Counted from the first letter of the stretch, positions 6,072 through 60,530 are shown. The stretch is DNA of 64,000 nt from Escherichia coli (GCF_003334315.1 NZ_QOWR01000012.1); one strand, 5' to 3'. Made by a program: numbers and translations. Notes: generated from the letters alone by a model not told the origin.

Positions 6072-6272
6072 ATACTTACTCCTCAAATCATCTTTTAATG
6101 ATAATAATTCTCATTATATTGCCGCGACGAAGCAACAGCAATGCTTACGCATAACCATAGCGAAAATAGTGGCGCAGTGTAAGGTTGTTGTGAATATTGA
6201 GTTGCAAATATGTCGGTGTTTGCTGGTGATTTGAACAATATGAGATAAAGCCCTCATGACGAGGGCGTAACA

Positions 6273-54813: not shown

Positions 54814-55911
<1,098 letters not shown>

Positions 55912-55916
55912 AAAAA

Positions 55917-55938
55917 GCCCGTCCAGTGGCGGACGGGC
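55917..55938. terminator. Hairpin terminator between ybiC and ybiJ
   Basis: Stem gcccgtcc/ggacgggc with an A-run on the plus strand (T-run on the minus strand). Confidence 0.55.
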
Positions 55939-56019
55939 AAACAAGGGTAACATAGGATCAATGAGGGTTAGAGCATATGCGTCTGTCGGCAAACAGACAG
56001 GGAAATACTTGTGCTGGAC

Positions 56020-56135
56020 GTAGCGTAAACGCCTGATCCGTCCAACGGTTCGGATTTTGTAGGCCTGATAAGACGCGGTAGCGTCGCATCAGGCATCTGT
56101 TGCCGGATGCGGCGTAAACGCCTTATCCGTCCTAC
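56020..56135. repeat. BIME with at least two REP elements
   Basis: gtaggcctgataagacgcggtagcgtcgcatcaggca and tgccggatgcggcgtaaacgccttatccgtcctac. Confidence 0.75.
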
Positions 56136-56138
56136 GAA

Positions 56139-56399
56139 TTACTTATAAATTACCGCAGTACCGCTTAATTTATTGTTGTTGGTGGCGGAAGTGATGCTGT
56201 ATCCACTGGCACCGGCTGCCGCGGCTTTCTCAGCCAGTTTCGCTTCCAGGGCATCGAGGGTGGATGCGCCATCGGCAGAAACCACGCCGATTTTATTCAT
56301 GTTCTGTGCCTGGGATGCCGTTACCGGTTCCGCCGCGAACACGCCAAATGACAGAGTTGAAAGAGCCATAGCAGCAACAACAGTATTGATAGTTTTCAT
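56139..56399 (-). CDS. ybiJ: Small periplasmic DUF1471 (YhcN-family) protein
   Basis: 86-aa ORF with signal peptide; paralog of mcbA. Confidence 0.88.
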   Translation of the reverse strand: MKTINTVVAAMALSTLSFGVFAAEPVTASQAQNMNKIGVVSADGASTLDALEAKLAEKAAAAGASGYSITSATNNNKLSGTAVIYK

Positions 56400-56663
56400 A
56401 ATTAATCTCTCGCAGGTGATTTTTGTATAAGTGACGTTGTTTCGTCGATGTGATGAGTATCACGTTTTTTTACGAGAGATAAAATCGAAGAGAATTGACC
56501 GCCTTGTTCAAATAAATTGATTGATATCTAACCTACTGATAAACCATTTATTTGTTGTACTTATGAACTTGTTTTATACCGCGTGGCAGTCACAGCAGCG
56601 TTAAAGGCACGGAATGACACGCAAAATACAAATTATACTCGCTATGCATCTCGCCAGTTGTAG

Positions 56664-56930
56664 TTAACGTAACTGGCTGTCTTTCGAACCTCTGCGATTA
56701 TATCCTGTATAAGCTGGTTTTTGTAAATCTTTCTCCTGCTGACAATGAATACATAAGCGCACGCCAGGAATGGCTTCCCGACGGGCCTGCGGGATGGGGG
56801 CACCGCACTCTTCACATTCATCCAAGCTTTCGCCGCGCGGAATTTCACCCCGAGCGCGGGCAATCGCATCTTCAATTGTACTGTTGATCTGTTCGTTGAC
56901 GGCGTCATCGTTAGCCCAACCGGATGCCAT
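56664..56930 (-). CDS. ybiI: DksA/TraR-family C4 zinc-finger protein
   Basis: 88-aa ORF with CxxC-N17-CxxC (CEECGAPIPQARREAIPGVRLCIHCQ). Confidence 0.88.
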   Translation of the reverse strand: MASGWANDDAVNEQINSTIEDAIARARGEIPRGESLDECEECGAPIPQARREAIPGVRLCIHCQQEKDLQKPAYTGYNRRGSKDSQLR

Positions 56931-57003
56931 ATCGACCTCCCCATATCAATACTTGTACAGTTAAGTGTAGCTAATCCAGGGACGAACTCGGGCAGTTCAA
57001 GCA

Positions 57004-57681
57004 TCAGATCTCCGACCATTCCCGCAGCAGATTATGATAAAGATTAAGCAGCGACAGGATCTCTTCACTTTCGCCGTAGCGGCTTTTCAGCGACTGAATA
57101 TTGTTGTCCAGTTCAAACAGCATGGCGCGCTTTTTATCATCGCGGATCATCGACTGGATCCACATAAATGATGCCACTCGTACGCCGCGGGTTACGGGTG
57201 TCACGCAATGCAGGCTGCTGGAGGGATACAACACGAGATCGCCTGCCGGGAGTTTTACCCGATGTTGTCCGAAGGTGTCATTAACGACCAGTTCGCCGCC
57301 GTCGTAGCTTTGTGGATCGCTTAAAAACAGCGTGGCAGAAAGGTCAGTACGCATCCAGCCGTTTTGTGGATGGCTGCGTACTGCGCCATCCACATGGAAA
57401 CCATAGGTTTCATTGTTCTGATAGCGATTAAACAGCGGCGTGGAAAGGGTACGCGGCAAGGCCGCGGCAAAGAATAAAGCATGTTGGTTAACCGCGTTCA
57501 GCACCTCATTTTGCAGGGCGGCGTATAACGTGCTGCGGGTGTCGACCTGTTGATTGTTCTTAACTTGCGCACCTTGTGCGCCGGTGGTGACGCGTCCATC
57601 CACCCATTCGGCTTGTTCCAGTTGTTCGCGAAAACGAGCGACGTCCTGTGGCGATAACACGCCGGGAATGTGGTACATCAT
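57004..57681 (-). CDS. ybiX: PKHD-type Fe(II)/2-oxoglutarate-dependent hydroxylase
   Basis: ORF trimmed to [17 protein letters not shown] (225 aa); directly downstream of fiu. Confidence 0.88.
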
Positions 57682-57722
57682 ACAATTTCTCCAAAAAGTG
57701 GGGCCTGCGCCCCACATCTGAA

Positions 57723-60005
57723 TCAGAAATGCATATTGGCTGTGAGCAAGAAGGTTCTTGGCTCGCCCGGGTGATAACGGTAGCCGCTCTTGTTGATTGA
57801 GGCGACGTAATCGGTATCAAACAGGTTGTAAACGTTTAGCTGGAAGTCGAGATTGCGATTAACTCGATACCCCAGTTTGGCATCGGCGACCCAGTAACCT
57901 TCGGTAAACGCTGGCGTTCCCACCGCGCCGTCTGAACCTTTATGCATACTGCCGATATAGCGTGCGCCCGCGCCAACAGAGATATCGTCGGTTGCCTGAT
58001 ATTGGCTCCATAAGGTGAAGGCGTGCTCCGGGGTATACGGCAGCGATGAGGAACCATCCTGGGCAACATCTTTGCCGTTTTTGATGGTTGCTTTTTGCTG
58101 GGTATAGCCGCCAATCACCTGCCACGCGGGAGTGATATTCCCGGCCACGGATATCTCATAGCCTTCGACGCGTTTCTTACCGTATTGCGAGTAAGTTCCG
58201 TCATCATTTTGCTCAACTTCATTTTCGATATCAGTGCGGAACAGCGCGGCGGTGAGCAACAGACGTTTATCCAGAACCTGCCATTTGGTGCCAATCTCGC
58301 TGGTGTTGGCTTTTTGCGGTTTAAAATCGGTGCGGTTGGCACTGTTACCGCTGCCAGACTGCGCAAGGGCGAAGTTGTTGCCGCCCGGAGGCTGCTGGGA
58401 AACGGCATAGTTAATATAGACATTGCCGTTTTCCGTCAGGTGATACAGCGCCCCGGCTTTCCAGTTCATCAGATTGCCCGACTTGGCGGTGTCGACGGTG
58501 GTGACCGGAGAACCTTTTGCCACACCAGTTGGGCAGGTGATGGCACCGCGTCCGCTGCCGCCGCAGGCGGTGGCACTGTCATATTCAGTATGATAATTAT
58601 CCAGACGGATCCCGCCGTTCAGCTCAAAATCACGGGTGATTTGCAGCGTATCAAAGGCGTAAATTGCGAAGGTATCCGTCTGACCATTGGCGTTTGCGCC
58701 GTTGCGCGTCAGGCCGCCGGGATGAATGCTGCTGTCAGGATGATAAATATTTACCGCGGGTAACGTCACCGGATTAACGCCGTAGTTAGTCTGCGTTTCA
58801 CGGGTAAATTCCACGCCGGTACTGACATCATGACCGATAGAACCGGTATAGAACGTCGAGGTCAGGTTGGTCTGGTTGGTGAGAATTTTATTACTCACAT
58901 CTTTGGTATTCGCCGTGCGTGACCAGGTCCAGCTATTCACATCGCTGGTGGGCTGAGTAATATTCGACGCCCCGCCCATAATCGCCGTCATCAGGTAATC
59001 CTGCTTTACGCGCGACCAACGGGTAGTATTGCGAATGGTGGTGTTATCGTTGATGTCGTGCTCAAAACGCATGGTGGCGGTGTCGGTGGTCGAATCGTCG
59101 TAATCGGAATCCGTGCCGTAAAAGTTATGAGTATCAACTTTTCCGGAATGATTCAGGGCCGCCGTTCCCGCAGATGGGGCAGAATAGCCCGGCAAACCGA
59201 TGGTCGGAATGCCGCCGTCTGGCGTGTTGTGCTGGGTGACATGCAGATAATTAAGATACAAACGATTCGCTGTACCAAGGCCAAAAGCGACAGAAGGGGC
59301 GACGCCGTAACGCTCATTTTTGACTTTGTCGCGTCAGGCATCGTGCGTTTTTTCGCCCATTACATTCAGGCGCACCGCGGTGGTATCACCAATGACCTGA
59401 TTGACGTCCAGCGTGCCGCGGCGGAACCAGGCGCTGCCAATACTGGCGGAGGCGTCAATGCCGGAATCATTGCGCGGCTGCTTGCTGATCATATTGATCG
59501 AGCCTGTCGGTGCGCTGCGCCCGTAGTCGGTGCCGGACGGCCCTTTAATCACTTCGACCTGCTCGGTATTGAAGGTGTCGCGCGAGACGCTGCCGATATC
59601 GCGAATGCCATCAATATAAATACTGTTAGAGGTATCGGCACCACGCATATAAATGGCGTCGCCAGTGGTGGAGTTACCGTTCTCACCCGCAAAAAACGCA
59701 CCCACGCCGGGGACGTTTTTGAGCGCGTCGGTAAGGTTGGTTGCGCCCTGATCTTTAATCACTTGTTCAGAAATTACCGTCATCGTGCGGGTAGTATCCG
59801 CTACCGGACGCGAGAATTTCGGATCGGCAGATTGTTGTGGCGCATAAAGCGAAGGCGTTGATGCTTCGACAACCAGCGTGTCATCCGCGTTAGTTTGCTC
59901 TTCGGCGGCGAGTGCCTGAGCCACAGGCGTGATGCCAATACAAAGACCGGCAAAGAACGTGAGCGAATGAAATTGTCTGGCAGGGAAATTGCGATTGTTT
60001 TCCAT
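57723..60005 (-). pseudogene. fiu: TonB-dependent catecholate siderophore receptor Fiu, interrupted by an in-frame TGA at 59334..59336
   Basis: ORFs 59334..60005 (223 aa, signal peptide and plug) and 57723..59261 (512 aa, barrel ending in the C-terminal Phe) are in the same frame; hand translation reads ...EKTHDA-stop-RDKVKNERYGVAPSVAFGLGTANRLYLNY... across the break. Confidence 0.85.
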
Positions 60006-60109
60006 TTTGCAGGTGACTTTTTCTTATATGTTGAAATTTTCACTGCCACGAGAAAGCCTCTCTGCGGATGCGATGCCACTGTTAATCCCGTGATAGTGCT
60101 CGTGAAAGT

Positions 60110-60136
60110 GATAATAATTTTGATAAGCATTATCAC
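60110..60136. promoter_or_regulatory. Fur box upstream of fiu
   Basis: gataataattttgataagcattatcac resembles the GATAATGATAATCATTATC consensus. Confidence 0.6.
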
Positions 60137-60269
60137 TTGGAGCGATTTTCTATCACCCATTGCGCGAAAAAGAAATACATTTATTTACATTGAGTTCATA
60201 TTTGATGTTTTTTGATTACAAAACAGACGAAAACTGCATCCAGAGGCGAATGCAGTTACGTTGGTGGGG

Positions 60270-60530
60270 TTATTTGTAGATGGTTGCAGTACCGAACATC
60301 TGGTCATTTCCGCCTGCGGAATTAATGACATAACCTTTCGCGCCTTGTTCGCGCGCTTTTTCTGCCAGTTTATCCTCCAGATCGCTTAGGTTTGATGCGC
60401 CAGTTGCCGAAACGGTACCGGCGGGCCGTAGCTGACCGCTGTCCAGGTTACTCATCGGTTGCGCGGCATAAGCCGTGAGAGAGATTCCGCTCAGGACGGT
60501 GGCAATCAGTAGTGTGAGGCACTTTTTCAT
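60270..60530 (-). CDS. mcbA: Small periplasmic DUF1471 (YhcN-family) protein
   Basis: ORF trimmed to MKKCLTLLIATVLSGISLTAYA (86 aa); ends GTATIYK like ybiJ (GTAVIYK). Confidence 0.85.
   Translation of the reverse strand: MKKCLTLLIATVLSGISLTAYAAQPMSNLDSGQLRPAGTVSATGASNLSDLEDKLAEKAREQGAKGYVINSAGGNDQMFGTATIYK

What the first reader, a model, noticed from the sequence alone, without database searches (positions are those of the whole stretch)
56139..60530. Two DUF1471 paralogs bracket the Fur-regulated fiu-ybiX locus
ybiJ and mcbA both encode 86-aa secreted proteins with the same C-terminal motif and lie on either side of ybiI-ybiX-fiu. This looks like a local duplication of a small periplasmic protein gene around an iron-uptake module.
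Basis: seen in the sequence. Interest (0 to 1): 0.3.

Follow-up and report, generated by a model that had tools for sequence, protein, structure and literature searches.

The report
Known DUF1471 paralog pair flanking fiu
Two small, already-annotated periplasmic stress proteins of E. coli (YbiJ and McbA) are true but very old paralogs that sit side by side in related bacteria, and the iron-uptake genes between them are a come-and-go insert, so the pattern is real but ordinary.

Summary
ybiJ (56139-56399, -) and mcbA/ybiM (60270-60530, -) each encode an 86-aa signal-peptide protein with one DUF1471/PF07338 domain. They are 47% identical overall and 50% over the mature domain, so the similarity is not confined to the signal peptides. 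They flank ybiI-ybiX-fiu, and fiu has a Fur operator.

The duplication is ancient: third codon positions are saturated, the flanks share no similarity, and each gene forms its own orthologous clade across Enterobacteriaceae. It did not form around the iron module. Where fiu-ybiX is absent, mcbA and ybiJ are directly adjacent (Pluralibacter, Scandinavium) or separated only by ybiI (Enterobacter, Lelliottia, Trabulsiella). All four combinations of fiu-ybiX and ybiI occur between them, and the Fur box travels with fiu-ybiX.

Sequence trees cannot show that YbiJ and McbA are each other's closest relatives, because the unlinked BhsA is equally close. The shared C-terminal motif is family-wide. The family, the paralogy and the tandem-duplication mode are already published.

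Noticed in passing: fiu in this window carries a nonsense codon (G224*) found in none of 5,426 complete E. coli genomes.

The parts
56139..56399 (-). ybiJ CDS: 86-aa DUF1471 periplasmic protein with a Sec-type signal peptide (about residues 1-22)
   Evidence: ORF; annotated ybiJ; PF07338 at E 1.2e-17; NCBIfam YbiJ equivalog 173 bits
60270..60530 (-). mcbA (ybiM) CDS: 86-aa DUF1471 periplasmic protein. The mechanical ORF extends upstream to 60674, but the annotated and conserved start is 60530
   Evidence: NCBIfam McbA 174.5 bits; AF2 model with pLDDT above 90 for residues 36-86, whose best PDB matches are SrfN, YdgH, YahO and RcsF
57723..60005 (-). fiu, TonB-dependent catecholate receptor. Here it is interrupted by an in-frame TGA at 59334-59336 (G224*) and carries G36E (59899)
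57004..57681 (-). ybiX, PKHD-type Fe(II)/2-oxoglutarate hydroxylase, always found next to fiu in the loci examined
   Evidence: NCBIfam 519.8 bits; synteny
56664..56930 (-). ybiI, DksA/TraR-type C4 zinc-finger protein; present or absent between the pair independently of fiu-ybiX
   Evidence: NCBIfam 160.5 bits
60109..60135 (.). Two overlapping Fur 7-1-7 operators in the fiu promoter, about 105-130 nt upstream of the fiu ATG, overlapping a sigma-70-like site
   Evidence: absent from the spacers of genera that lack fiu-ybiX
60229..60255 (-). mcbA intrinsic terminator hairpin (CTGCAT...ATGCAG plus a T run), conserved in Enterobacter and Lelliottia; it separates mcbA from the fiu promoter
   Evidence: Read from the sequence; compared
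56012..56139 (-). REP/BIME cluster starting at the ybiJ stop codon, in the ybiJ 3' UTR; it explains the median of 11 matching places per genome
   Evidence: Rfam naRNA4 (REP-derived) at 56062-56132, 78.4 bits; sequence
55910..56006 (-). Region corresponding to the 3'-UTR sRNA ZbiJ annotated in K-12 (approximate mapping), ending in a strong terminator at 55917-55938
   Evidence: K-12 annotation; terminator
56400..56560 (-). ybiJ promoter and leader, 74% mean column identity across nine genera whatever gene lies upstream; ybiJ is therefore its own transcription unit

Best explanation
ybiJ and mcbA are two members of the Enterobacteriaceae-restricted DUF1471 (YhcN/BhsA/McbA, PF07338) family. They are small proteins with Sec-type signal peptides, reported as periplasmic, and have an RcsF-like alpha+beta domain implicated in envelope-stress and biofilm responses. 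They are an old, linked pair that most likely arose by tandem duplication in an ancestor of the Enterobacteriaceae, and each has since evolved as a separate orthologous lineage with its own promoter and terminator. The genes now between them in E. coli are later or dispensable cargo. One piece is a self-contained Fur-box-fiu-ybiX cassette and the other is ybiI, and the two are present or absent independently in different genera. The bracket is therefore a by-product of an insert sitting in the spacer of a tandem pair. It is not a duplication around the iron module, and there is no evidence that YbiJ or McbA act in iron uptake.

Shown here: homology, domain, fold, synteny states, Fur box location and saturation of synonymous sites. 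Inferred: tandem origin, and whether fiu-ybiX was gained or lost. Taken from the literature: periplasmic stress and biofilm roles, McbR repression of mcbA, and a proposed interaction of the family with outer-membrane proteins.
For: - Homology and domain.
- Fold: the McbA model matches SrfN, YdgH, YahO and RcsF.
- Age: third-codon identity is 29% and the flanks share nothing. The YbiJ, McbA, BhsA and YhcN clades are each monophyletic in 171-200 of 200 bootstraps.
- Synteny, mcbA-fiu-ybiX-ybiI-ybiJ: Escherichia, Citrobacter, Leclercia, Silvania and Raoultella.
- Synteny, mcbA-fiu-ybiX-ybiJ: Kluyvera.
- Synteny, mcbA-ybiI-ybiJ: Enterobacter, Lelliottia and Trabulsiella.
- Synteny, mcbA-ybiJ directly tandem: Pluralibacter and Scandinavium.
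- Synteny, ybiI-ybiJ only: Salmonella.
- The upstream gene in these loci is a McbA ortholog: 56-65% identity, 96-110 bits against 50-60 bits for BhsA.
- fiu-ybiX occurs alone in other contexts outside the family.
- The Fur operator occurs only with fiu.
- The Fur-1 iModulon lists fiu, ybiX and ybiI; ybiJ and mcbA are not mentioned in that paper.
- The family's genes cluster non-randomly in K-12, P = 0.0026. Eletsky et al. 2014 (PMC4092069) describe tandem DUF1471 genes as the mode of expansion.
Against: - Sequence phylogeny does not recover YbiJ+McbA as sisters: 38/200 bootstraps full length and 55/200 mature, against 102/200 and 78/200 for McbA+BhsA.
- Both proteins score higher on the NCBIfam BhsA model than on each other's model.
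- McbA-slot proteins of every genus score higher against BhsA than against YbiJ.
- Clade consensus identities are 43/86, 41/85 and 41/85, a trichotomy.
- With about 64 informative residues and a fast-evolving McbA branch, this neither supports nor excludes a tandem origin.
- The polarity of the fiu-ybiX indel (ancestral with repeated loss, or repeated gain at one site) was not resolved.
Confidence: 0.75

Rival explanations
1. McbA is not a tandem copy of ybiJ. It derives from the bhsA lineage (or bhsA derives from it), and the copy landed near ybiJ by a dispersed duplication or transfer. On this reading the linkage with ybiJ is secondary.
For: - NCBIfam: McbA scores 101.5 bits on the BhsA model and 74.3 on the YbiJ model. 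YbiJ scores 116.2 on BhsA and 80.6 on McbA.
- McbA orthologs of all genera score about 45-85 bits against E. coli BhsA and 33-61 against YbiJ.
- The full-length NJ tree joins McbA+BhsA in 102/200 bootstraps.
- Eletsky et al. note that the closest Salmonella sequence to YbiM is YcfR/BhsA.
Against: - Support falls to 78/200 on the mature domain, where YbiJ-McbA is the best pair: 60.1 against 52.4 bits.
- Clade consensus sequences are equidistant.
- McbA is always found beside ybiJ (alone or with ybiI/fiu-ybiX between) and never beside bhsA in the loci read.
- The McbA clade evolves 2-3 times faster, with within-clade distance 0.58-0.68 against 0.16-0.26, which distorts distance trees.
Confidence: 0.15
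2. One reading: the DUF1471 gene was duplicated locally around, or together with, the iron-uptake module, for example as flanking repeats created when the module was inserted.
For: Both genes are the same length and orientation and lie 4.1 kb apart on either side of fiu-ybiX-ybiI.
Against: - There is no nucleotide similarity in the flanks, and synonymous sites are saturated.
- The pair is present and adjacent in genera without the module.
- The module is present without the pair outside the Enterobacteriaceae.
- Each paralog forms its own clade across genera, so the duplication predates the variable presence of the module.
Confidence: 0.05
3. The linkage is functional. As RcsF-like periplasmic domains that may bind outer-membrane beta-barrels, McbA and/or YbiJ modulate Fiu (its assembly, gating or turnover), and selection keeps them next to it.
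For: - The McbA model matches RcsF.
- PMC12096828 hypothesises that interaction with outer-membrane proteins is common to DUF1471 proteins, and states that YjfN directs DegP-dependent OmpA degradation.
- The insert sits at the same spot in several genera.
Against: - The pair is kept in many genera without fiu.
- Klebsiella michiganensis and K. spallanzanii keep fiu-ybiX-ybiI-ybiJ without a detectable mcbA.
- There is no shared regulation: the Fur box is only at fiu, and the Fur-1 iModulon lacks ybiJ and mcbA.
- ybiJ has its own conserved promoter.
Confidence: 0.05

Closest known systems
DUF1471 / YhcN / BhsA-McbA family (Pfam PF07338), as described by Eletsky et al. 2014 (PMC4092069)
   Same: About 86-90 aa, N-terminal signal peptide, one alpha+beta domain ending in the conserved ...TA.(I/L)Y(K/R) strand, restricted to Enterobacteriaceae, with multiple paralogs per genome and some in tandem. 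Both window proteins meet all of these.
   Different: Nothing differs; they are the type members YbiJ and YbiM/McbA themselves. The paper cites yjfN-yjfO and yhcN-ycfR-like as adjacent pairs but does not discuss ybiJ/ybiM. It reports that Salmonella lacks YbiM, which fits the Salmonella locus read here.
BhsA (YcfR), multiple stress resistance protein, unlinked locus at 1.169 Mb in MG1655
   Same: It is as close to YbiJ and to McbA as they are to each other (73.6 and 69.7 bits against 72.0). It has the same length and the same C-terminal GTAVIYK. Like ybiJ, it has an annotated 3'-UTR sRNA: BhsB for bhsA and ZbiJ for ybiJ.
   Different: It lies elsewhere in the genome and evolves slowly (within-clade distance 0.16-0.17). 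It is reported as outer-membrane associated and as lowering copper permeability (PMC12096828).
yjfN-bsmA...yjfY cluster of E. coli
   Same: A second place in the same genome where DUF1471 paralogs are tandem (424 bp apart) and, with yjfY, bracket an unrelated operon (ulaR, ulaG, ulaABCDEF), about 8 kb apart.
   Different: These belong to different subfamilies and score only 24-37 bits against each other, where BLAST aligns them at all. The cargo is ascorbate catabolism, not iron uptake.
RcsF, outer-membrane lipoprotein sensor of the Rcs phosphorelay
   Same: The fold is the same: Foldseek match to 2y1b with rmsd 2.2 A over 69 columns. The similarity was noted by Eletsky 2014 and by PMC12282094 and PMC12096828. 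McbA over-expression gives colanic-acid mucoidy, which Eletsky et al. note is also a process associated with RcsF.
   Different: Only 13% identity. E. coli YbiJ and McbA have no lipobox, lack RcsF's redox-active cysteines and lack its lipidated N-terminal linker, so this is a resemblance in fold and not family membership.

Membership tests
DUF1471 / YdgH_BhsA-like (PF07338) | Significant match to the Pfam domain model over its full length | tested here: met
   YbiJ residues 34-86 match model positions 1-55/55, E 1.2e-17. McbA residues 34-86 match 1-55/55, E 3e-19.
DUF1471 / YdgH_BhsA-like (PF07338) | Small single-domain protein with an N-terminal Sec signal peptide (periplasmic) | tested here: inconclusive
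   Both are 86 aa. Each has an MK(T/K) n-region, a hydrophobic core and an A-x-A-like site (VFA|AEP, AYA|AQP), read from the sequence. The AF2 model is disordered for residues 1-29. No signal-peptide predictor was available. Export is stated in the literature: a Sec signal in YbiJ and 'periplasmic protein YbiM'.
DUF1471 / YdgH_BhsA-like (PF07338) | Mixed alpha+beta fold shared with SrfN, YahO, YdgH and RcsF | tested here: met
   The McbA model has strand-helix-strand-strand with pLDDT 84-97 for residues 31-86. Its top PDB matches are 2jna and 2ma8 (SrfN), 4evu (YdgH), 2y1b (RcsF), and 2noc and 2ma4 (YahO). YbiJ was not modelled here; phmmer matches 2noc and 2ma4.
DUF1471 / YdgH_BhsA-like (PF07338) | Taxonomic restriction to Enterobacteriaceae | tested here: met
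   Every organism named among the best 120 hits for YbiJ and for the McbA profile is an Enterobacteriaceae genus (apart from unclassified metagenome bins). No DUF1471 gene flanks fiu-ybiX in Pantoea, Rouxiella, Serratia or Tatumella. Only the best 120 hits of each search were seen.
YbiJ orthologous group (NCBIfam NF007611) | Score above the curated equivalog cut-off (110 bits) | tested here: met
   173.1 bits
McbA/YbiM orthologous group (NCBIfam NF040473) | Score above the curated cut-off (110 bits) | tested here: met
   174.5 bits
McbA/YbiM orthologous group (NCBIfam NF040473) | Repression by McbR/YncC and a colanic-acid/biofilm phenotype | not testable with these tools
   Known only from Zhang et al. 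2008, as cited in PMC4092069 and PMC12096828.
Recent local (segmental) duplicate pair | Residual nucleotide similarity including synonymous sites and flanks, with the two copies as each other's closest relatives | tested here: not met
   Third-codon identity is 29%, and the flanks share no match beyond 7-9 nt words. The sister relation is recovered in only 19-28% of bootstraps. BhsA is equally close.
Fur regulon | Fur operator in the promoter of the gene | tested here: not met
   This applies to ybiJ and mcbA. The only 7-1-7 boxes in the region, at 2 mismatches or fewer, are at 60109-60135 in the fiu promoter. ybiJ and mcbA are not named in the Fur pan-regulon paper. For fiu itself the feature is met.

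The most novel reading that the evidence does not exclude
The spacer between mcbA and ybiJ may be a conserved 'slot' in Enterobacteriaceae. Two independent cargos, a self-contained Fur-box-fiu-ybiX cassette and ybiI, have been gained or lost there repeatedly, and all four combinations occur. The slot might be kept because the flanking RcsF-like proteins act on outer-membrane beta-barrels such as Fiu. If so, YbiJ or McbA would influence catecholate-siderophore or siderophore-antibiotic entry.
Probability: 0.06. Interest if true: 0.45.

Novelty: already known. Interest (0 to 1): 0.1.

Why it matters
It matters little. Both genes, their family, their fold and their paralogy are annotated and published, and gene duplication is the accepted origin of the family.

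The only addition here is comparative. The pair is tandem in genera that lack fiu-ybiX, so the iron module is an insert between old paralogs. That removes any reason to expect an iron-related function for YbiJ or McbA on positional grounds.

The private fiu nonsense allele could matter for this particular strain's uptake of catecholate siderophores, catechol-conjugated cephalosporins and Fiu-dependent microcins and colicins. It is a strain-level detail.

Tried and rejected
- The 19-nt Fur consensus at 3 mismatches or fewer found only the gpmA site at 6100-6118 and missed fiu. The 7-1-7 form was needed.
- NJ bootstrap trees (full length and mature domain), clade-consensus comparison and a search for shared derived residues did not resolve the order of YbiJ, McbA and BhsA. 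No ML program was available.
- Comparison of the 5' and 3' flanks of ybiJ and mcbA for remnants of a duplicated segment found nothing.
- A search for mcbA remnants upstream of fiu in Klebsiella spallanzanii and K. michiganensis, Kluyvera sichuanensis, an unnamed Enterobacteriaceae genome and two Pseudocitrobacter genomes found nothing. A search for ybiI remnants in the Pluralibacter and Scandinavium spacers also found nothing.
- A literature search for 'ZbiJ' returned only unrelated papers.
- PADLOC defence models gave no hit for either protein.
- Gene conversion between the two copies was considered and rejected, because the paralogs cluster by gene and not by genome.
- The source strain could not be identified. 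The window is 99.68% identical to MG1655. It differs at 4 sites in 32 kb from strain HS30-1. No complete RefSeq genome carries the fiu stop.
Full report
WHAT IS THERE. The window is E. coli chromosome, 99.68% identical to MG1655 over its last 20.5 kb. Its last 32 kb differ at only 4 sites from strain HS30-1. On the - strand the region holds, in transcription order:
- mcbA (60270-60530)
- fiu (57723-60005)
- ybiX (57004-57681)
- ybiI (56664-56930)
- ybiJ (56139-56399)

The region lies between rlmF/ybiO and hcxB/ybiB. Both ybiJ and mcbA encode 86-aa proteins with one PF07338 (DUF1471) domain at residues 34-86. Each passes its own NCBIfam model's curated cut-off.

THE OBSERVATION. YbiJ and McbA align end to end without gaps, 40/86 identical, E 1e-22. 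After removal of the first 22 residues they are still 50% identical over 64 residues, E 6e-19. The shared C-terminal motif is real, but BhsA (GTAVIYK), YahO, RclB and YhcN carry it too. It marks the family, not this pair. Two overlapping Fur 7-1-7 operators lie at 60109-60135 in the fiu promoter; the window has 3 such hits against 0.16 expected, and the third is at gpmA. The literature places fiu in the core Fur regulon and puts fiu, ybiX and ybiI in the Fur-1 iModulon. ybiJ and mcbA are not mentioned in that paper.

HOW OLD, AND WHO IS CLOSEST. At the nucleotide level the two genes are 49% identical. Third codon positions are 29% identical, which I take to be near the random expectation, and the flanks share only chance 7-9-mers.

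Among the ten DUF1471 genes of MG1655, YbiJ, McbA and the unlinked BhsA are equidistant: 72.0, 73.6 and 69.7 bits, with YhcN next at 50-65. Both window proteins score higher on the NCBIfam BhsA model than on each other's model. McbA-position proteins from every genus score higher against BhsA than against YbiJ.

A neighbour-joining analysis of 54 non-redundant sequences recovers each of the four clades in 171-200 of 200 bootstraps but does not resolve their order. YbiJ+McbA appears in 38 and 55 of 200 replicates (full length and mature domain), McbA+BhsA in 102 and 78, and YbiJ+BhsA in 22 and 32. Clade consensus sequences are 43/86, 41/85 and 41/85 identical. McbA evolves two to three times faster than the others. 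Sequence alone therefore shows an old three-way radiation, not a YbiJ-McbA sister pair.

SYNTENY DECIDES THE QUESTION. Loci anchored on ybiX, analysed, and loci anchored on YbiJ orthologs, classified, show these states:
- mcbA-fiu-ybiX-ybiI-ybiJ in Escherichia, Citrobacter, Leclercia, Silvania and Raoultella, and in one Pseudocitrobacter.
- mcbA-fiu-ybiX-ybiJ in most Kluyvera genomes.
- mcbA-ybiI-ybiJ in Enterobacter, Lelliottia and Trabulsiella.
- mcbA-ybiJ directly adjacent, with a spacer of about 440 bp and no ybiI remnant, in Pluralibacter and Scandinavium.
- fiu-ybiX-ybiI-ybiJ with no detectable mcbA in two Klebsiella species.
- ybiI-ybiJ only in Salmonella, in agreement with Eletsky et al. 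that Salmonella lacks YbiM.
- fiu-ybiX alone, in other contexts and without any DUF1471 neighbour, in Pantoea sp. A4, Rouxiella, Serratia sp. M24T3 and most Tatumella loci (in one Tatumella locus only ybiX was detected).

The upstream DUF1471 genes in the loci without fiu are McbA orthologs: 56-65% identity and 96-110 bits, against 50-60 bits for BhsA.

All four combinations of the two cargos (fiu-ybiX, ybiI) therefore occur between a conserved pair. The Fur operator is present only when fiu-ybiX is present, while the mcbA terminator hairpin is conserved with or without it. The ybiJ promoter and leader are 74% conserved over 160 nt across nine genera whatever lies upstream.

The simplest reading is an old tandem pair with separate transcription units, and a variable insert in its spacer. 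Linkage of family members is not chance. In MG1655 two pairs lie within 4.2 kb, with simulation P = 0.0026, and yjfN-bsmA and yjfY bracket the ula operon in the same way.

WHAT THE PROTEINS DO. The AlphaFold model of McbA is confident over the mature domain. Its best PDB matches are the solved DUF1471 structures and RcsF.

The rest comes from the literature:
- The family is periplasmic, confined to Enterobacteriaceae, and linked to stress and biofilm phenotypes. mcbA is repressed by McbR, and McbA causes colanic-acid overproduction (PMC4092069).
- YbiJ is described there as likely periplasmic; a YbiJ-msfGFP fusion showed faint envelope enrichment in M9-glucose only. ybiJ is induced by acid. 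The paper explicitly calls it 'a paralog of McbA' (PMC12282094).
- A common mechanism through interaction with outer-membrane proteins has been proposed, with YjfN/DegP/OmpA and BhsA/copper permeability as examples (PMC12096828).

Nothing found here ties either protein to iron uptake.

COMPARISON WITH THE KNOWN, AND NOVELTY. These are the named family members themselves. The paralogy, the family size (ten in E. coli), the fold and the tandem-duplication scenario are all in print. The comparative point that the iron cassette is an insert between the pair is, as far as the searched papers show, not spelled out, but it is a small refinement. Verdict: observation confirmed, interpretation partly supported, already known, low interest.

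SIDE OBSERVATION. fiu in this window has an in-frame TGA at codon 224. On the + strand, position 59336 is A where other genomes have C, which changes GGA to TGA. It also carries G36E (59899). These are two of only four differences from HS30-1 in 32 kb. The stop is in none of 5,426 complete E. coli genomes, whereas G36E occurs in 8. The iron module that the pair brackets is therefore probably non-functional in this strain, unless the base is a sequencing error.

Noticed in passing
window 59334-59336 (fiu codon 224) and 59899 (fiu codon 36): fiu carries a premature TGA (G224*, a single base change) and a G36E substitution. These are 2 of only 4 differences from the closest genome (HS30-1) in 32 kb. 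The stop allele is absent from all 5,426 complete E. coli genomes searched, and G36E is in 8. It is either a private loss-of-function allele of the catecholate and siderophore-antibiotic receptor or a sequencing error.
   Followed up: partly
window 56012-56139 (- strand), with the Rfam naRNA4 hit at 56062-56132: A REP/BIME cluster begins right at the ybiJ stop codon, inside the long ybiJ 3' UTR that in K-12 yields the sRNA ZbiJ. It explains why the 6-kb query matched a median of 11 places per genome. bhsA also has an annotated 3'-UTR sRNA (BhsB).
   Followed up: partly
window 56400-56560 (- strand): The 160 nt upstream of ybiJ are unusually conserved across nine genera. There are long invariant blocks such as TTCGATTT and CGTGATACT..TCACATCGAC, plus an AT-rich block. 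This holds whether ybiI or mcbA lies upstream, which suggests a conserved promoter and regulator site. No Fur 7-1-7 match was found in the Pluralibacter and Scandinavium versions of this region (<=3 mismatches) or in the E. coli one (<=2 mismatches).
   Followed up: partly
L035:5170-5439 and L040:5152-5424 (Kluyvera genomosp. 3 and K. georgiana, mcbA position): The McbA-position proteins of these two Kluyvera have a lipobox-like signal peptide (…LLATTTAC / …LLVTSTTGC) in place of the A-x-A site. McbA may have become a lipoprotein there, as RcsF and BsmA are.
   Followed up: no
window 6099-6118: The best Fur-box match in the window lies just upstream of gpmA (mapped through K-12 coordinates); I recall gpmA as a Fur-regulated gene, which was not checked here.
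   Followed up: partly
L092:6523-7137, L093:6283-6897, L094:6514-7128: In Pluralibacter, Trabulsiella and Scandinavium a flavin-reductase gene (PF01613) lies between rlmF and mcbA. It is absent at that position in E. coli (275 bp between mcbA and rlmF). This is another variable gene at the locus.
   Followed up: no
L049:7722-8644, L051:4042-7049, L035:5674-7954, L040:5657-7954: In several other genomes (a Citrobacter, Leclercia adecarboxylata NCTC13032 and two Kluyvera) fiu and/or ybiX appear fragmented into several ORFs or partly deleted. This suggests the cassette decays repeatedly, or that these assemblies contain errors.
   Followed up: no
window 38404 and 51079: These are the two remaining single-base differences from strain HS30-1 in the last 32 kb of the window. 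Their effects were not examined.
   Followed up: no
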